Origin: Candidatus Krumholzibacteriota bacterium
GTDB lineage: Bacteria > Krumholzibacteriota > Krumholzibacteriia > JAJRXK01
Assembly (NCBI GenBank): GCA_963764625.1
Contig: CAVXTH010000009.1
Span: 384,001 to 448,000 of the forward strand
Length of the DNA: 64,000 nt
Direction: 5' to 3'
Shown here: positions 21,940 through 60,303 of the stretch, piece by piece
Layout: every line of letters begins with the position of its first letter
Position numbering within the stretch: position 1 is the stretch's first letter
The notes under the pieces: model-generated
Database searches by the model: none
What the model was told of the DNA's origin: nothing
Seen by the model: the letters and a program-made list of their open reading frames with translations, nothing else
Translations under genes and position numbers: made by a program

Positions 21940-22168
21940 GGGTCCCTCGAGCGCCTCAGAGAATGAAACCGAATCGAGGGATCAAGACTAGGTTCAGCCG
22001 CGCGATTTCTCAAGTTCGCGCGTCCTCAGCCGCCCGGCGCGAGGGGCGGCGCCATGCCCGATGCGACCGTGAGACCCCGGTGGCCTGTCCGAATCCGGCG
22101 GCCAGTGCTAGATTCGAGAAGTTCGCCCGTTGGGGGCGATGCACCCGTTTCCTGGAGGTCCGCCGTCA

Positions 22169-23311
22169 ATGCGCTGCGTTTCTGCAATCGTTCTTCTACT
22201 CCTCGTGCCCCTTCTGAGCTCGGTGGCAGGCCTTAGCCTCGCGCAGGATGCCACGGATGAGGTGAAAGCTCCGAGCGCCAATTCGGTCGAGGAGGCCACG
22301 GCGCCAGATGGCATGTACGCGGTGTTTCATACGGATCTCGGGGTCATCGTCTGCAAACTCTTCTTCCAACGGGCCCCTCTGACCGTAGCGAATTTCGTGG
22401 GCCTCGCTGAAGGAACCCGAGAGACCATCGATCCCGTGACCAGGGAAACGGTGAAGAAGCCCTTTTACGACGGACTGCTCTTCCACCGGGTAGTGGGGGG
22501 TCTTTTGATCCAATGTGGCGATCCCACCGGGCATGGCACGGGGGGACCAGGCTACCGCTTTCGCGACGAATTCGATCCGGGCCTCCGTCACGATCGTCCC
22601 GGCGTACTCTCGATGGCCAACAGCGGGCCGAATACGAACGGCAGCCAGTTCTTCATCACCGAAACGAGGGTTCTGTCCTTCGACCGAAAGTACAGTGTCT
22701 TCGGGCGGGTCGTGCTGGGATTGGACGTCGTGTCCGCGATTTCTTCGGTTCCCACCGATCAAGAGCAACCCAAAGAGGATGTTCATCTGCGGACTCTCGA
22801 AATCGTGCGCCGGGGAAAGGAAGCGCAGAACTTCGATGCCGAGGCGGTCTTTGCGCACCTCAAGGATCTCGATGCGGCCCAACTTGCGCAGCTGCATTCC
22901 AAGCAATTTCACCAGAAAGTCGATCCGCTGCGCAAGAGGGCTCGCGAGCAGGAGGATGGCAGCCGGGTGGTCAAGACGCGTAAAGGAAGTGGGCTCCAAC
23001 CGCACGAAGGGGAGTCGATCGTCACGAACTACGTCTGCTACTTGCCCGATGGAAGTCAGGTGGAATCGACCTACCGGGATGAAACTCCGAAGGTCCTCGT
23101 CGCGGGCAGGCCGCGCAGGGGACTCGATTGGGAGCGGAACTTCCTGGACATGAAAGTGGGAGAAGAGCGCTGGGTGTTCTTGCCCGCGAAGCTCGCGTTC
23201 GGTAACCGTGGAATTCCGGGGGTCGTTCCCCCGGGCACTCCCCTCATTTTCCAACTCGAACTGGTCTCGATCGGAAGTGATGTCCCTCCGAGTGATCCGC
23301 AAGCCGAGTGA
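22169..23311 (+). CDS. Exported dual-family peptidyl-prolyl isomerase (cyclophilin + FKBP)
   Basis: Signal peptide; APLTVANFVGLAEG, FHRV, QCGDP.G.G.GGPGY, SMANSGPNTNGSQFFIT; C-terminal MKVGE...P.LAFG.RG.PGVVPP..PLIF. Confidence 0.88.
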   Translation: MRCVSAIVLLLLVPLLSSVAGLSLAQDATDEVKAPSANSVEEATAPDGMYAVFHTDLGVIVCKLFFQRAPLTVANFVGLAEGTRETIDPVTRETVKKPFYDGLLFHRVVGGLLIQCGDPTGHGTGGPGYRFRDEFDPGLRHDRPGVLSMANSGPNTNGSQFFITETRVLSFDRKYSVFGRVVLGLDVVSAISSVPTDQEQPKEDVHLRTLEIVRRGKEAQNFDAEAVFAHLKDLDAAQLAQLHSKQFHQKVDPLRKRAREQEDGSRVVKTRKGSGLQPHEGESIVTNYVCYLPDGSQVESTYRDETPKVLVAGRPRRGLDWERNFLDMKVGEERWVFLPAKLAFGNRGIPGVVPPGTPLIFQLELVSIGSDVPPSDPQAE

Positions 23312-23552
23312 GGCAGCCGCCCCGGAGGGAAGGAAATGTGTCCGGCACCCACGGCGATCTCGCAAAATCGCTTGCCCTCAGAGCTCAATTGAGTTATTTC
23401 CGGCACTTACAGAGCACGGGTCGCAATGGGACCCATCTCCATCACGGTGCCACGCACCAAGGGTGGGACTTCCCTCGGACTCGTTGTCGATCGTGAAGGA
23501 TCGGTGTGATGCCGGTACCTCGTTTGACAATCAAAACCCAAGGAGGCCCACT

Positions 23553-23816
23553 GTGGCCAAGAAGAAGACTGCCGCCAAGAGGAAGCCCGCCGCGAAGAAA
23601 ACCACGAGAAAGAAGGCTGCGGCCAAGAAGTCCGCCATGGAGATGCTGCTCGTGGGAAGCAAGACCAAGGTTGCGCTCAAGAAGTACGGGGTCAACGTAG
23701 CTGGAGACGCCCTGGATGGTCTCAACGGTGTGCTCTACTGGTACGTCGAGCAGGCTGCCAAGCGCGCCAAGGCGAATGGCCGCAAGACGGTGCGTGCCCA
23801 CGATTTCACGGTGTGA
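23553..23816 (+). CDS. Bacterial histone-fold protein (Bd0055-like) with Lys/Ala-rich N-terminal tail
   Basis: AGGAGG 6 nt before GTG; 87 aa: MAKKKTAAKRKPAAKKTTRKKAAAKKSA-MEMLLVGSKTKVALKKYGVNVAGDALDGLNGVLYWYVEQAAKRAKANGRKTVRAHDFTV; histone L2 motif RKTVxxxD. Confidence 0.88.
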   Translation: MAKKKTAAKRKPAAKKTTRKKAAAKKSAMEMLLVGSKTKVALKKYGVNVAGDALDGLNGVLYWYVEQAAKRAKANGRKTVRAHDFTV

Positions 23817-23890
23817 TGTAGAAAGCCCCAAGCTTGTTCGCCGCGACGCGAGCGCCTTCCCCTTGGCACATCCCGTCGCAGCGAAACACA

Positions 23891-23918
23891 AGAGGCCGTT
23901 CCTGAGGGAGCGGCCTCT
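23891..23918. terminator. Hairpin between convergent genes, possible bidirectional terminator
   Basis: AGAGGCCGTTCC-TGAG-GGAGCGGCCTCT, 12-bp stem with one G-U pair; weak U tract. Confidence 0.5.
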
Positions 23919-23942
23919 GCGCTTATGGAATCATCGCGGTCC

Positions 23943-24629
23943 TCACTTCAGGAGTCCCGCTTCGCTGAATTGCGGCAACCCTCCGTGCATTAAAAACCAG
24001 ATGAGGTAGAGCAAGAGCGCGAGCAGATACCCCGATGCGAAGAAGACGGACATCGCGTCCCGCTTGCGTCTTTTCCACTTCGCTCCAATCCATGTCACGA
24101 TCGATAGTGCGGCGAGAATTCCAAGCGCCGGCGTTTGCCCTTCCACCGTGACGGCGAAAAAGCTGAAACCGTAGGGCACTCCGCTCACGGCGCACGCGAA
24201 GGGTGAGACCCTCGCGTTCCCCACTGGTCCCCGCAGGAGGATGAGCGAGAGCGAGATGATCGCGCAGTGCCAGATGATGTGACTCAGATGTTCGTCCAGG
24301 AAGTAGTCGAGGCGCCACGCGGGAGTGGCCCCTTGGGGGTCGATGAGATGTCCCAGCGCGTTCGCGGCCAAATGAAGCGAGTGTCCTTCGATCCAGGCGG
24401 CCGAGAGAACCAGGAACAGAATCATCTTGGGCCAGCCCGGCCATCCGCCGTGACGGTGCCACAGGAGCAAAGCGTAGAGTGGCAAGAGTACGAGGGGGGT
24501 GAGGAGATCGAGGAGATCTCCCACGCGCAACAGACCCTCCGGCGGGGCGGAGTGCACCAAATACGCCGGGCTCAACAGGAAAAGAGTGAAGCTGATGGAG
24601 AACAGGATGAGACTGCTAGAGAGTTTCAC
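23943..24629 (-). CDS. Polytopic membrane protein with CLN6-like motifs
   Basis: About 7 hydrophobic segments; motifs VGD..LLTP, GHSLHLAANALGH, YFLDEHLSHIIW, TVEGQ. Confidence 0.65.
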   Translation of the reverse strand: MKLSSSLILFSISFTLFLLSPAYLVHSAPPEGLLRVGDLLDLLTPLVLLPLYALLLWHRHGGWPGWPKMILFLVLSAAWIEGHSLHLAANALGHLIDPQGATPAWRLDYFLDEHLSHIIWHCAIISLSLILLRGPVGNARVSPFACAVSGVPYGFSFFAVTVEGQTPALGILAALSIVTWIGAKWKRRKRDAMSVFFASGYLLALLLYLIWFLMHGGLPQFSEAGLLK

Positions 24630-57675: not shown

Positions 57676-60303
57676 ATGCAGATCTCACCCGGTACCAGAC
57701 TCGGCCCCTATGAAATCCTCGCGCCCCTGGGCGCGGGGGGAATGGGTGAGGTGTACCGCGCGCGGGACACGCGCCTCGACCGCGAAGTCGCGGTCAAAGT
57801 GCTGCCCGAACACCTCTCGACGCATCCGGAGATTCGCTCACGGTTCGAGCGCGAGGCACGGGCGGTTTCCTCCCTCAATCACCCCCACATCTGCACCCTG
57901 TTCGACGTCGGCCGCGAGGGAAACACCGACTATCTGGTGATGGAGCTCATCGAGGGCGAGACCCTGGCGGACCGGCTCGTGAAGGGCCCCCTACCGCTTG
58001 CGGACGTGCTCGCCTTGGGCTCGCAGATCTGTAGCGCTCTCACCCGCGCCCACCGCGCCGGGATCATCCATCGCGATCTCAAGCCGGGGAACGTCATGCT
58101 GTCTGCGGGGGGCGCCAAGCTGATGGACTTCGGTCTGGCGCGCGCCGTGGGTCCCGCAGAAGCAGGTGAGGGGGGCGTGAGCCGACTCGCGCAGTCACCG
58201 ACCATCGCCCAGCCCTTGACCGCAGAGGGCACGATCCTCGGCACCTTTCAGTACATGGCCCCCGAACAGCTCGAGGGCAAGGAGGCCGATGAGCGAAGTG
58301 ATGTGTGGGCGCTCGGCTGTGTCCTCTACGAGATGGCCACGGGAAGCAGGGCCTTCGACGGGACCAGCCAGGCCAGTCTGATCTCGGCCATCATGGGACA
58401 AGCGGTACGGGCATTGAAGGAGCTCGCTCCCGCCTCGCCGCCCGCACTGGATCGTTTGATCCAGGCCTGCCTGGCCAAGGATCCCCAGGAGCGGGTGCAG
58501 ACGGCGCACGACGTCGGTCTGCAACTTCAGTGGATGCAATCCGCTGACGAGAGCGAGGCATTCCCGAGAGCCGCTGCGACCTCGGGCAAGCACCGCCGAC
58601 CGCGTTGGGCGCTCTGGGTCGTCACGGCCCTGGTCGTTCTGGCGACCTCGGCCACGACCTTCGTCATCGGTCGCGGTGGCCGGCCGACGACTGAATCCAC
58701 GGAGGTCCAATATCACCGCAAGACCTACCGCAAGCAGGCCATCTTCACCGCGCGCTTCATGCCCGACGGCAAGACGATCGTCTTGAGCTCCGCGCTCCTG
58801 GGGAACCAAACGCGACTCTACGTCATCCGTCCCGAATATCCCGCGCCGCAGCCGCTCGGGGTGAAGAACGTGCACCTGCTCGCCATCTCCTCGCGGGGCG
58901 AGTTGGCGGTTCTGGCCAACGCCCGCTACTCCGGCCACCATCGGCTCTTCAGCGGCACCCTGGCCCGCATGCCCCTGGAAGGCGCCGCCCCACGGGAAGT
59001 CCTGGAAGGCGTCCGCGAGGCGGATTGGTCGCCCGACGGAACGCAGCTCGCCATCATTCACGAGGTCGACGGCAAGGACCGGCTGGAGTATCCCATCGGC
59101 AAGGTCCTCTACGAATCGGCCGGCTATCTCAGCGACCCGCGGGTATCTAGAGACGGCCAACGAGTCGCGTTCATGGAGCATCCCTTCCGCTGGGACGACC
59201 GGGGGTCGGTCAACCTCATCGATCGCGAGGGCCACATGCGCGTGCTCAGTTCGGGATACTGGGGCATGGAGGGGATGGCGTGGTCGGTGGATGATGCAGC
59301 GGTGTTTTTCAGTGCCACCATCAACGGTAGCGACTTTTCCGTGTACCGGGCCGGCCTGCAGGGCAACGCAAAGCTGGTGCGCCAGAGCGCGGGGCTGTTG
59401 ACAATCCACGACATCGCAGCGAATGGCACCTGGATCGCGACGCGAGACGACTATCCAATCCGCATCATGTTTCAGGGGGCCGAAGACGCGCAAGCCCACG
59501 ACATCTCCTGGCTCGACAGCTCCGTGAGTCCAGTCCTCTCGGCCGATGCCAAGACCGTGGTCTTCACCGATCAGGCCGAAGGGGGTGGTCCAAATTACGG
59601 GGTGACTCTCCGCTCCACCTCTGGGGGCGCCATCGTTCGCCTGGGGGAGGGAGTGGCCCAGGAGTTCTCGGCCGATGGGAAATCGGTACTGGTGGCCGTT
59701 CCAAGCACTCCCCCGCGCGTCATGAGCTATCCGGTGGGGGCGGGACAGCCGCTTCGCCTCGACCATGGTGAGTTCGAGAATATCGGGCAGGCACTTTGGA
59801 TGCCCGGTGAAAGCGCGGTTCTGGTGAGCGGAAACGTGGCGGGCCAGCCACCTCGCTGCTTTTTGTTGAGTGCGTCCACGACCGAGCCGAAGCCGGTGGG
59901 TCCGGTGGGCATTCGGGGTGGCTTCCCCTCTCCGGATGGCAAGGTCTTCGTGGCGCTGTCGCAGACCGGTTGGTGGATCTACTCGATCTCGGGAGAGGAA
60001 AGCCCCCGGAAGCTGGAGTCGCTGTCCTCCCACGACCAGCTGGTTCGCTGGAACCTGGACGGATCCGCCCTGTACTGCTTCCGGGAGGCCAATAGCCCCA
60101 CGTCTCTGGACCGCATCGAGATCGCCACCGGCAAGCGTGAGAGCATCATGACCCTCGGCGGCACCGATCGAACCGGCCTCCTCAATCTGATCGATGTGTC
60201 GATGGCGGATGATCTGAGATCCGTCGTGTACGCCGGGTGGTACTACGACTCGGTGCTCTATACCATCGAACGTGCTCATCCGGCGGAACCGGAGCACGGT
60301 TAG
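57676..60303 (+). CDS. Hanks-type Ser/Thr kinase with TM helix and C-terminal TolB/PD40-like beta-propeller
   Basis: LGAGGMGEVY, VAVK, HRDLKPGN, DFGLA, GTFQYMAPEQ, D.WALG; TM; WSPDG, SRDG, SADG repeats. Confidence 0.92.
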   Translation: MQISPGTRLGPYEILAPLGAGGMGEVYRARDTRLDREVAVKVLPEHLSTHPEIRSRFEREARAVSSLNHPHICTLFDVGREGNTDYLVMELIEGETLADRLVKGPLPLADVLALGSQICSALTRAHRAGIIHRDLKPGNVMLSAGGAKLMDFGLARAVGPAEAGEGGVSRLAQSPTIAQPLTAEGTILGTFQYMAPEQLEGKEADERSDVWALGCVLYEMATGSRAFDGTSQASLISAIMGQAVRALKELAPASPPALDRLIQACLAKDPQERVQTAHDVGLQLQWMQSADESEAFPRAAATSGKHRRPRWALWVVTALVVLATSATTFVIGRGGRPTTESTEVQYHRKTYRKQAIFTARFMPDGKTIVLSSALLGNQTRLYVIRPEYPAPQPLGVKNVHLLAISSRGELAVLANARYSGHHRLFSGTLARMPLEGAAPREVLEGVREADWSPDGTQLAIIHEVDGKDRLEYPIGKVLYESAGYLSDPRVSRDGQRVAFMEHPFRWDDRGSVNLIDREGHMRVLSSGYWGMEGMAWSVDDAAVFFSATINGSDFSVYRAGLQGNAKLVRQSAGLLTIHDIAANGTWIATRDDYPIRIMFQGAEDAQAHDISWLDSSVSPVLSADAKTVVFTDQAEGGGPNYGVTLRSTSGGAIVRLGEGVAQEFSADGKSVLVAVPSTPPRVMSYPVGAGQPLRLDHGEFENIGQALWMPGESAVLVSGNVAGQPPRCFLLSASTTEPKPVGPVGIRGGFPSPDGKVFVALSQTGWWIYSISGEESPRKLESLSSHDQLVRWNLDGSALYCFREANSPTSLDRIEIATGKRESIMTLGGTDRTGLLNLIDVSMADDLRSVVYAGWYYDSVLYTIERAHPAEPEHG

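What the first reader, a model, noticed from the sequence alone, without database searches (positions are those of the whole stretch)
23553..23816. Bacterial histone with a eukaryote-like, Lys-rich N-terminal tail
Seen: a perfect AGGAGG sits 6 nt before the GTG at 23553 and opens an 87-aa protein, hidden inside a longer 202-aa ORF call. The C-terminal 59 aa (MLLVGSKTKVALKKYGVNVAGDALDGLN...AAKRAKANGRKTVRAHDF) follow the pattern of the Bdellovibrio histone Bd0055 as I recall it (VLVVTSKVKKLIK...AKADGRKTVMARD), including the RKTVxxxD L2 motif and short alpha3. The first 28 aa (MAKKKTAAKRKPAAKKTTRKKAAAKKSA) have 13 Lys/Arg, no acidic residues, and several Thr/Ser. Established: Bd0055 itself has no such tail. 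Inference: a standalone chromatin protein whose disordered tail may bridge or condense DNA and be tuned by acetylation or phosphorylation (the window also encodes a Hanks kinase). Met29 could give a tailless isoform.
Basis: partly seen in the sequence, partly recalled or inferred. Interest (0 to 1): 0.88.

Follow-up and report, generated by a model that had tools for sequence, protein, structure and literature searches.

The report
Tailed face-to-face bacterial histone gene
This small gene encodes a genuine bacterial histone with a lysine-rich, disordered front tail, but it belongs to a class whose members are already reported to carry such tails, so it is a good new example and not a new kind of protein.

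Summary
AGGAGG (23541-23546) lies 6 nt before GTG 23553, which opens an 87-aa ORF nested in a 202-aa ORF.

Residues 29-87 form an alpha3-truncated histone fold. The nearest solved relative is not Bd0055/HBb (E 2.3e-4). It is the tetrameric face-to-face (FtF) histone HLp of Leptospira perolatii (E 2.9e-10; Foldseek TM 0.96, rmsd 0.6 A). The FtF tetramer residues are present as R71, N75 and R77. A four-copy model scores 0.90 against 0.01 for the best control.

The tail appears to be translated. All 9 family orthologs keep a start codon (GTG in 5, ATG in 4) behind AAGGAG, with tails of 23-39 aa, 12-19 Lys/Arg and no acidic residues. Metatranscriptome contigs span the leader, start and tail codons.

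Basic tails are common in this family: 45 of 98 representatives. Schwab et al. 2024 already report them for bacterial FtF histones.

The genome, probably Krumholzibacteriota, also has a tailless HTkC-like paralog, three HU/IHF genes and 33 Hanks-kinase matches. The kinase in the window is therefore uninformative.

Verdict: new member of a known kind. Tail function is untested.

The parts
23541..23546 (+). Shine-Dalgarno AGGAGG, 6 nt before the start codon
   Evidence: Read. AAGGAG(G) lies 6-7 nt before the start in all 9 family orthologs.
23553..23816 (+). Coding sequence of the 87-aa tailed histone (GTG start, TGA stop)
   Evidence: Translation. Orthologs of 82-98 aa are found in 8 relatives of the same family.
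23553..23636 (+). Codons 1-28: Lys/Ala-rich N-terminal tail (11 K, 2 R, 9 A, no D/E; net +13)
   Evidence: Composition. The AlphaFold2 model shows coil with pLDDT 65-74. The tail makes no confident contact in the four-copy model. RNA contigs span it.
23637..23813 (+). Codons 29-87: alpha3-truncated histone fold (a1 35-43, a2 51-74, a3 83-86). It includes DNA-contact equivalents S36, K37, K39, K43, G51, K78, T79, tetramer residues R71, N75, R77, the R77-D84 clamp, and 2 extra C-terminal residues T86 V87.
   Evidence: Residue roles are taken from PMC12701072 sections 7 and 9.
23420..23552 (+). 5' leader within the 241-nt gap after the upstream gene
   Evidence: Metatranscriptome contigs X24 record 8 (23420-23600) and X17 record 4 (23447-23664) run from here through the start and tail codons. 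No sigma-70-like promoter was found by the simple scan.
23891..23918 (+). 12-bp GC-rich hairpin 75 nt after the stop, between the histone gene and the convergent gene 23943-24629(-). Possible terminator without a T-run.
   Evidence: The fold of 23817-23935 gives -53.5 kcal/mol and z -4.4. The terminator scan did not call it. The terminator function is inferred.

Best explanation
The gene encodes an alpha3-truncated histone of the face-to-face (FtF) class, HLp-like, translated from GTG 23553. The mature protein is therefore a ~57-residue histone fold preceded by a ~28-residue disordered polycationic tail.

Shown or strongly supported:
- the histone fold;
- conservation of the FtF signature residues;
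- conservation of the tail's start codon, SD, reading frame and composition across the family;
- presence of the tail codons in RNA-library contigs.

Inferred:
- Two chains form the handshake dimer.
- Two dimers close into a tetramer through the end of alpha2, loop L2 and alpha3 (R71, N75, R77 and the C-terminus).
- DNA is bound along the outer surface through S36/K37/K39/K43, G51 and K78/T79, as in HLp.
- The four tails (+13 each) act as flexible counter-ions that raise DNA affinity and promote compaction or bridging. This is the way Lys/Ala-rich extensions of H1 and of some bacterial nucleoid proteins work.

The protein would act alongside three HU/IHF proteins and a tailless FtF paralog, and would not be the sole nucleoid organiser.
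For: Fold and class:
- PDB sequence search: HLp 9qt0 E 2.9e-10; HBb 2.3e-4; HTkC 7.1e-3.
- AlphaFold2 model with pLDDT 87.4. Helices are 35-43, 51-74 and 83-86; residues 1-34 are coil.
- Foldseek: HLp TMt 0.96, rmsd 0.6 A, 46% identity; HBb 0.84-0.89; HTkC 0.88-0.90; HMfA/B 0.57-0.60.
- Alignment of 80 singlets: N75, R77, D84 invariant; S36, A68, R71, T79 at >=90%.
- HLp R49/N53/R55 (tetramer) map to R71/N75/R77. HLp DNA contacts S14, K15, K17, K21, G29, T57 map to identical residues (alignment; roles).

Tetramer:
- The four-copy model scored 0.90 (runs 0.89-0.91) against a best control of 0.01.
- The runs agree in >=95% of contacts, and partner pLDDT is >=78.
- The tool's calibration: the mark was reached by 20 of 30 proteins solved as pairs of one chain and by 1 of 23 solved as single chains.
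- A second interface uses residues 66-67, 70-71, 74-75, 81, 83-84 and 86-87.

Tail translated:
- 9 of 9 family orthologs start at the same place (5 GTG, 4 ATG) behind AAGGAG(G).
- Tails are 23-39 aa with 12-19 K+R and 0 D/E, and the frame is kept through length changes.
- Upstream open frames are short in other genera (110-140 aa against 202-220 here).
- RNA-library contigs cover 23420-23600 and 23447-23664.
Against: - The protein ends two residues (T86, V87) after the Phe that is C-terminal in HLp. The HTkC preprint (passages) argues that a C-terminal extension should break the Arg-carboxylate salt bridge that holds FtF tetramers together.
- The four-copy model is ESMFold2 and may score high from memory of 9QT0 and 9F2C. 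Its calibration used two copies, not four.
- HLp S52, T61 and T27 are A74, H83 and V49 here.
- Pfam gives no histone hit. NCBIfam archaea_histone reaches only 15.5 bits against a cut-off of 50.
- The tail evolves fast: non-synonymous changes are about equal to synonymous ones within the genus.
- There is no protein-level evidence for the N-terminus, no DNA-binding data and no expression level. RNA libraries can hold DNA.
- Three HU/IHF genes mean the histone need not be a major chromatin protein.
Confidence: 0.75

Rival explanations
1. It works as an HBb/Bd0055-like dimer that bends or coats DNA. The 2-residue C-terminal extension prevents closure of the FtF tetramer. The tail then supplies the extra DNA contacts or dimer-dimer bridging.
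For: - HBb is a significant hit (E 2.3e-4; TMt 0.84-0.89).
- The L2 motif is RKT as in bacterial dimer histones (passage), whereas HLp has RTT.
- T86-V87 follow the HLp-terminal Phe. A C-terminal extension is expected to disrupt the FtF salt bridge.
- 38 of 98 family representatives share such a 2-4 residue extension.
Against: - R71 and N75 are present and nearly invariant or invariant. Bacterial dimer histones are said to lack both (passage), and HBb shows S and D at those columns.
- HLp is the better match by six orders of magnitude in E-value.
- The four-copy model gives a confident dimer-dimer interface that includes residues 86-87.
Confidence: 0.17
2. The tail is a regulatory platform like eukaryotic histone tails. 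Its Lys, Thr and Ser residues would be reversibly acetylated or phosphorylated to tune chromatin.
For: - The tail has 11 Lys, 3 Thr and 1 Ser.
- The genome has 33 Pkinase matches.
- A Hanks kinase is conserved beside the other (tailless) histone paralog in 8 of 8 family genomes examined.
Against: - No tail position other than the N-terminal AKK is conserved across genera, and length varies from 23 to 39 aa.
- The window's kinase is 34 kb away.
- The kinase synteny concerns the tailless paralog and is absent in 7 of 7 genomes of other families.
- Nothing was tested at the protein level.
Confidence: 0.1
3. The tail is not made. Translation starts at Met29 or Met31, and the upstream Lys-rich frame is untranslated leader.
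For: - Met31 is conserved in 9 of 9 orthologs, and many family members begin at that position.
- For HLp the databases' longer form was judged wrong by its authors.
Against: - There is no SD before 23637 or 23643.
- The start codon plus AAGGAG is conserved at the tail's first codon in 9 of 9 orthologs and switches between GTG and ATG.
- Length changes keep the frame, and there are no acidic residues or stops.
- Met29 is absent in 2 of 9 orthologs.
- Residues 30-35 lie in the modelled dimer interface, so Met31 is a fold residue.
Confidence: 0.04

Closest known systems
HLp, FtF histone of Leptospira perolatii (PDB 9QT0/9QT1/9QT2; PMC12701072)
   Same: - Best sequence hit (E 2.9e-10) and best structural hit (TMt 0.96, rmsd 0.6 A, 46% identity).
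- Truncated 4-residue alpha3.
- Tetramer residues R49/N53/R55 correspond to R71/N75/R77, and the RD clamp R55-D62 to R77-D84.
- DNA contacts S14, K15, K17, K21, G29 and T57 are identical.
   Different: - HLp as characterised is 63 aa with only 6-7 disordered N-terminal residues. This protein has a 28-residue tail of +13 charge.
- RKT here against RTT in HLp.
- A74, H83 and V49 stand in place of S52, T61 and T27.
- There are two extra C-terminal residues.
- Per the paper, Leptospira lacks HU. This genome has three HU/IHF genes.
Bd0055 / HBb, bacterial dimer histone of Bdellovibrio bacteriovorus (PDB 8CMP, 8FVX)
   Same: - The same alpha3-truncated histone superfamily.
- The S-K motif at the start of alpha1 and the GRKTV L2 motif.
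- Significant hit (E 2.3e-4; TMt 0.84-0.89).
   Different: - HBb has S and D where this protein has R71 and N75.
- HBb has no tail.
- HBb is reported as a dimer that bends or coats DNA (abstract in the listing; passages).
HTkC, archaeal FtF histone of Thermococcus kodakarensis (PDB 9F2C)
   Same: - Toroidal tetramer class with the conserved Arg (R45 in HTkC).
- TMt 0.88-0.90.
- The window genome's second, tailless paralog hits HTkC best (E 5.4e-7).
   Different: - HTkC is tailless.
- Its tetramer depends on Arg pairing with the C-terminal carboxylate, a geometry that the TV extension here would alter.
Positively charged N-terminal tails of bacterial FtF histones and of Asgard archaeal histones (Schwab et al. 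2024, PMC11390915)
   Same: [quoted passage not shown]
- This tail fits that description. So do 45 of 98 family representatives.
   Different: - At 28 aa this tail is in the long tenth (9 of 98 have >=28 aa).
- The phylum suggested here (Krumholzibacteriota) is not among the phyla the paper names as predominant.
- The paper's supplementary figures on tails could not be seen.
Lys/Ala-rich extensions of other nucleoid proteins (mycobacterial MDP1/HupB C-terminal IDR; chlamydial Hc1/Hc2; eukaryotic H1 C-terminal domain)
   Same: - A low-complexity K/A/P/T polycation attached to a small DNA-binding fold.
- The MDP1 C-terminal IDR was seen only in the abstract listed (PMC5974015).
- A relative's tail (P0004) gives a sub-threshold Pfam HC2 match (E 6.4e-4, 20.3 bits against a cut-off of 40).
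- The rest is recalled.
   Different: - The attached fold differs (histone fold, not HU or a winged helix).
- No homology is shown. The likeness is compositional.

Membership tests
alpha3-truncated histone superfamily (Schwab et al. 2024) | Histone fold: three helices joined by two loops | tested here: met
   The AlphaFold2 model has helices 35-43, 51-74 and 83-86 with pLDDT 93-98 over the fold. The top 50 Foldseek matches listed are all histone-fold chains or histone-containing complexes.
alpha3-truncated histone superfamily (Schwab et al. 2024) | alpha3 of only 3-4 residues | tested here: met
   alpha3 is residues 83-86 in the model. The definition is from the passage.
alpha3-truncated histone superfamily (Schwab et al. 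2024) | RxTxxxxD motif structuring loop L2 | tested here: met
   R77, T79 and D84 are present. R77 and D84 are invariant and T79 is at >=90% in 80 sequences.
Face-to-face (FtF) histones | Conserved Arg and Asn of the dimer-dimer interface (HMM R48/N52; HLp R49/N53, plus R55) | tested here: met
   R71, N75 and R77 align to them. N75 and R77 are invariant and R71 is at >=90%.
Face-to-face (FtF) histones | Predicted or observed closed tetramer of two facing dimers | tested here: inconclusive
   The four-copy ESMFold2 model scored 0.90 against a best control of 0.01. Its second interface uses 66-67, 70-71, 74-75, 81, 83-84 and 86-87. The score may reflect memory of 9QT0/9F2C, ring closure was not inspected, and there is no experiment.
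Face-to-face (FtF) histones | Chain ends right after alpha3, so that the C-terminal carboxylate pairs with the conserved Arg of the facing dimer (HTkC R45; HLp R49-F63) | tested here: not met
   T86 and V87 follow the Phe that is C-terminal in HLp. Of 98 representatives, 48 end at that Phe/Leu and 38 carry a 2-4 residue extension like this one. The expectation that an extension disrupts the bridge comes from the passage. Whether the extension's own carboxylate substitutes is unknown.
Bacterial dimer histones (HBb/Bd0055 group) | Lack of the FtF interface residues R48 and N52; sequence clustering with HBb | tested here: not met
   R71 and N75 are present, where HBb has S and D at those columns. 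HBb is a much weaker hit than HLp (2.3e-4 against 2.9e-10).
Nucleosomal (HMfB-type) histones | Full-length ~10-residue alpha3, longer alpha2 and a four-helix-bundle tetramer interface | tested here: not met
   alpha3 is 4 residues. HMfA/HMfB reach only TMt 0.57-0.60. NCBIfam archaea_histone gives 15.5 bits against a cut-off of 50.
DUF1931 pseudodimeric histones (PF09123) | Match to PF09123 over its cut-off; two folds in one chain | tested here: not met
   There is no PF09123 hit at E <= 10. The protein has a single fold. The 'DUF1931' label on 9qt0 is the depositors' name for HLp.
Eukaryote-type histone tails (homology or PTM function) | Sequence homology to H3/H4/H2A/H2B tails, or demonstrated modification | not testable with these tools
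   The only tail-region matches are chance-level low-complexity hits (DUF3175 E 0.083; H1-like NF038053 E 2.9). Modification needs mass spectrometry.

The most novel reading that the evidence does not exclude
This bacterial family may run a two-histone chromatin system: a tailed HLp-like FtF histone and a tailless HTkC-like FtF histone, both kept across its four genera. The two could form mixed dimers or tetramers, acting as histone 'variants'. A Hanks kinase held next to the tailless paralog in 8 of 8 family genomes, or other enzymes acting on the Lys/Thr-rich tail, would set the DNA-compacting strength. That would be a bacterial analogue of variant-plus-modification chromatin control.
Probability: 0.1. 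Interest if true: 0.75.

Novelty: new member of a known kind. Interest (0 to 1): 0.4.

Why it matters
In the papers I read, bacterial histones have been characterised only in tailless or near-tailless forms: HBb, and the 63-aa HLp. Schwab et al. 2024 noted basic tails on bacterial FtF histones, but those papers report no test of what the tails do.

This gene is a clean, well-bounded example with a long tail (+13). It has nine orthologs that fix the start codon. It also has a natural tailless paralog in the same genome to serve as a comparison.

That makes it a convenient construct for asking whether a polycationic tail changes wrapping, compaction or bridging by a bacterial histone, and whether the 2-residue C-terminal extension is compatible with the FtF tetramer.

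It also adds a probable Krumholzibacteriota lineage to the phyla with histones. It does not change the current picture of bacterial chromatin.

Tried and rejected
- **Pfam-A on the 87-aa protein.** No histone family was found, only DUF3175 (E 0.083) and DUF6465 (E 2) on the low-complexity tail. I rejected both as compositional.
- **NCBIfam.** archaea_histone is far below its cut-off, so it cannot be used for membership.
- **Rfam on the whole window.** No family reached its gathering score.
- **Promoter and terminator scans of 23250-24050.** None was found, so the transcription start is not located. The 3' hairpin remains an inference.
- **The search for related loci with alignment A1.** It failed because no stretch was conserved enough. 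I repeated it with the single protein. Its hits are biased by the search patterns: every hit carries the AKANGRKT word. I therefore did not count tails on them.
- **RNA contigs.** In the two RNA runs no contig lay on 22800-23411 or 23922-24300.
  - Records 5, 6, 9 and 10 fit only 22-42 bases of the Lys-codon stretch. They run on unlike the window, so they probably come from other organisms' tailed genes, and I ignored them.
- **Neighbouring genes as functional partners.**
  - The cyclophilin/FKBP gene is upstream in 5 of 5 genomes of the genus, but not in the 4 genomes of other genera.
  - The downstream membrane protein was found in only 3 of the 9 orthologous loci.
  - I rejected both as linked functions.
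- **Hanks kinase in the window (57709-58506) as a histone kinase.** Rejected, because it is one of 33 matches in the genome.
- **Literature search for Krumholzibacteriota plus histone.** 0 papers. The supplements of Schwab 2024, which list taxa and tails, are closed, so the phylum may be listed there.
- **Not run.** I did not run the search for homologous proteins, the listing of cluster members or the protein-atlas search, so I cannot say how databases name this protein. I did not build a tree, so no claim is made on horizontal transfer.

Full report
**The observation**

The sequence is as described. AGGAGG occupies 23541-23546 and six bases follow. GTG 23553 then opens a frame of 87 codons that ends at TGA 23814-23816. 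The mechanical ORF list shows it only as the tail end of a 202-aa ORF from GTG 23208. That ORF overlaps the 3' end of the upstream cyclophilin+FKBP isomerase gene, 22130-23311. Residues 1-28 hold 11 Lys, 2 Arg, 9 Ala, 3 Thr, 1 Ser and 1 Pro, with no acidic residue and a net charge of +13.

**Fold and class**

A phmmer search of all PDB chains gave these hits:

| Chain | Protein | E-value | Query residues |
|---|---|---|---|
| 9qt0 | HLp, Leptospira perolatii | 2.9e-10 | 24-85 |
| 8cmp / 8fvx | Bd0055/HBb | 2.3e-4 / 2.6e-4 | 29-86 / 30-86 |
| 9f2c | HTkC, archaeal | 7.1e-3 | 31-83 |

An AlphaFold2 model was built on an alignment of 80 family singlets (A1). Its mean pLDDT is 87.4. Residues 1-34 are coil (block pLDDT 65-74), and the helices are 35-43, 51-74 and a four-residue alpha3 at 83-86. 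Foldseek against the PDB ranks them as follows:

| Target | TM (target) | Note |
|---|---|---|
| HLp | 0.96 | rmsd 0.6 A, 46% identity |
| HTkC | 0.88-0.90 | |
| HBb | 0.84-0.89 | |
| HMfA / HMfB | 0.57-0.60 | nucleosomal type |

So this is an alpha3-truncated histone.

The defining FtF residues were taken from Schwab et al. 2024 (PMC11390915; passages, section 7) and Hu et al. 2025 (PMC12701072; sections 6, 7 and 9). In HLp they are R49, N53 and R55, plus the R55-D62 clamp. In the printed alignment they fall on R71, N75, R77 and D84. In A1, N75, R77 and D84 are invariant, and R71, T79, S36 and A68 are at 90% or more. HBb has Ser and Asp at the R71 and N75 columns. Of nine HLp DNA-contact residues:
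- six are identical here (S36, K37, K39, K43, G51, T79);
- A13 is G35;
- T56 is K78;
- T27 is V49.

**Tetramer**

A four-copy ESMFold2 job on A1 scored 0.90 (three runs, 0.89-0.91) against a best control of 0.01. The runs agree in at least 95% of contacts, and the partner pLDDT is at least 78. The tool's calibration reports that the mark was reached by 20 of 30 proteins solved as pairs of one chain and by 1 of 23 solved as single chains. That calibration used two copies, not four.

The scored copy touches one chain extensively, which is the handshake dimer. It touches a second chain through residues 66-67, 70-71, 74-75, 81, 83-84 and 86-87. That region is the FtF dimer-dimer interface. No tail residue is in a confident contact.

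The model supports binding but does not show it, and it may come from memory of 9QT0 and 9F2C. One point counts against it. This protein carries T86-V87 after the Phe that ends HLp. The HTkC preprint (10.64898/2025.12.06.692711; passages) expects a C-terminal extension to break the Arg-carboxylate bridge of the tetramer. Among 98 complete singlet representatives, 48 end at that Phe/Leu and 38 carry a 2-4 residue extension like this one. The extension is therefore a common subtype whose oligomer state is untested.

**Is the tail made?**

A search of 41 genomes (G000 plus 40 relatives) found a match in 29. High-identity orthologs (69-87%) covering the tail occur in 8 of 9 other genomes of the same family. 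G005, 93% complete, had none.

In all 9 genes, including the window's, the frame starts at the same point: GTG in the 5 genomes of the genus and ATG in the 4 genomes of other genera. AAGGAG(G) lies 6-7 nt upstream in every case. Tails, counted up to the conserved EMLLVG, are 23-39 residues with 12-19 Lys+Arg and no Asp or Glu. Length changes keep the frame. The upstream open frame shrinks to 110-140 codons in other genera, so the 202-aa ORF is not conserved.

Within the genus the tail shows about as many non-synonymous as synonymous codon changes (5/5, 6/7, 2/2). The fold shows 4/16, 4/15 and 3/13. This pattern is typical of a composition-constrained disordered segment.

Two metatranscriptome runs hold contigs that span the leader, SD, GTG and tail codons: X24 record 8 (23420-23600) and X17 record 4 (23447-23664). 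They carry the same variant letters as the DNA contig of run X1. Contigs cannot give starts or levels, and RNA libraries can hold DNA. This shows only that the tail codons lie on molecules in RNA libraries. No SD precedes Met29 or Met31. Met29 is absent in 2 of 9 orthologs. Residues 30-35 lie in the modelled dimer interface.

**How common is such a tail?**

The exhaustive profile-free search of 1.84 billion representatives gave 226 proteins at E <= 1e-3 and 54 at <= 1e-10. The best 150 were listed. Of those 150, 28 have two folds in one chain and 122 are singlets. Among the 98 singlets with a complete fold:
- 45 have an N-terminal extension of at least 8 aa with at least 30% Lys+Arg and at most one acidic residue;
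- 37 have such a tail of at least 12 aa, 16 of at least 20 aa, and 9 of at least 28 aa;
- 22 have fewer than 8 residues before the fold;
- 31 have longer but non-basic extensions, several of which look like over-extended gene calls with an internal MAKK start.

The longest basic tails reach 49 and 72 residues and are built of repeats.

The literature already says this. Schwab et al. [quoted passage not shown] Hocher et al. 2023 (PMC10627809; passages) had said that most bacterial singlets lack long tails. In the papers I read I found no experiment on a tailed bacterial histone. HLp was studied as the 63-aa form, with 6-7 disordered residues.

**Organism and genome context**

The window is G000:C9:384001-448000, in a 3.57-Mb, 9-contig genome that is 96% complete. 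Locus L022 bears a record title naming a Candidatus Krumholzibacteriota MAG. It is identical over 3,270 bases to L009 of G007, a genome of the same family. The window's organism is therefore probably of that phylum.

Schwab et al. and Hu et al. do not name this phylum among the predominant FtF-bearing phyla. No paper in the library holds both 'Krumholzibacteriota' and 'histone'. Their supplements could not be read.

The genome also holds:
- a second, tailless 56-aa histone at C6:269767-269937. It is 36% identical to this one and closest to HTkC (E 5.4e-7);
- three HU/IHF-family genes;
- 33 Pkinase matches.

Across the class three histone types appear:
- the tailed type, found in family f1 only;
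- the tailless type, found class-wide and sometimes with a short MAKK start;
- an HBb-like type.

The histone's neighbours are a periplasmic-type isomerase, an unassigned membrane protein on the opposite strand and an S49 peptidase. The isomerase neighbour is kept only within the genus.

**Mechanism proposed**

Shown or strongly supported: the fold, the class-defining residues, and the conserved start and tail. Inferred:
- handshake dimers pair into an HLp-like tetramer that binds DNA on its rim;
- four flexible tails, together +52, neutralise phosphate charge. This strengthens binding and favours compaction or bridging, as for other Lys/Ala-rich extensions of DNA-packaging proteins.

The main uncertainty is whether the TV extension allows the tetramer. 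If it does not, the protein would act as an HBb-like bending dimer with a tail.

**Verdict**

The finding is real and well bounded. Its classification should be corrected from Bd0055-like to HLp-like FtF. Its headline feature, a basic tail on a bacterial histone, is already in print as a class property. It is a new member of a known kind, of moderate interest as an experimental handle on tail function.

Noticed in passing
G000:C6:269767-269937 (L002 1507-1674; L118 4271-4438): A second, tailless 56-aa histone paralog sits in the same genome. It is 36% identical to the tailed one and closest to the archaeal FtF histone HTkC (E 5.4e-7). Orthologs occur across the class.
   Followed up: partly
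L118 1689-3347(-) = G000:C6 about 267188-268846; loci L119-L125: A Hanks-type Ser/Thr kinase lies divergently beside the tailless histone paralog, with or without a BtpA-like gene between them. This holds in 8 of 8 family genomes examined across 4 genera, and in 0 of 7 genomes of other families. Kin are not independent, so this may be inherited gene order.
   Followed up: partly
proteins P0002, P0003, P0005, P0006, P0008, P0009, P0012 and others: 28 of the best 150 relatives are doublets of about 117-150 aa, with two alpha3-type folds in one chain. In those I read, most halves keep the S-K and N-G-R-K-T motifs. The 6 scanned do not reach Pfam's DUF1931 cut-off. They seem distinct from the DUF1931 pseudodimers, which a review says lack DNA-binding residues.
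   Followed up: partly
L106, L108, L110, L111, L117 (genomes G031, G013, G026, G011, G016): Some genomes of the same class carry a third, HBb/Bd0055-like histone type beside the tailless FtF-like one. The class therefore holds up to three histone types.
   Followed up: no
proteins P0144, P0045, P0114: Some relatives carry very long N-terminal tails of 41-72 aa, built of repeated Ala/Lys/Pro units like those of H1-like proteins.
   Followed up: no
window 23817-23935: The 3' region between the histone gene and the convergent membrane-protein gene folds unusually well (-53.5 kcal/mol, z -4.4). It includes a 12-bp hairpin at 23891-23918 without a T-run.
   Followed up: partly
G000 whole genome: There are 33 Pkinase (PF00069) matches in a 3.57-Mb genome, many in open frames of about 900 aa. 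That is a high density of Hanks kinases.
   Followed up: no
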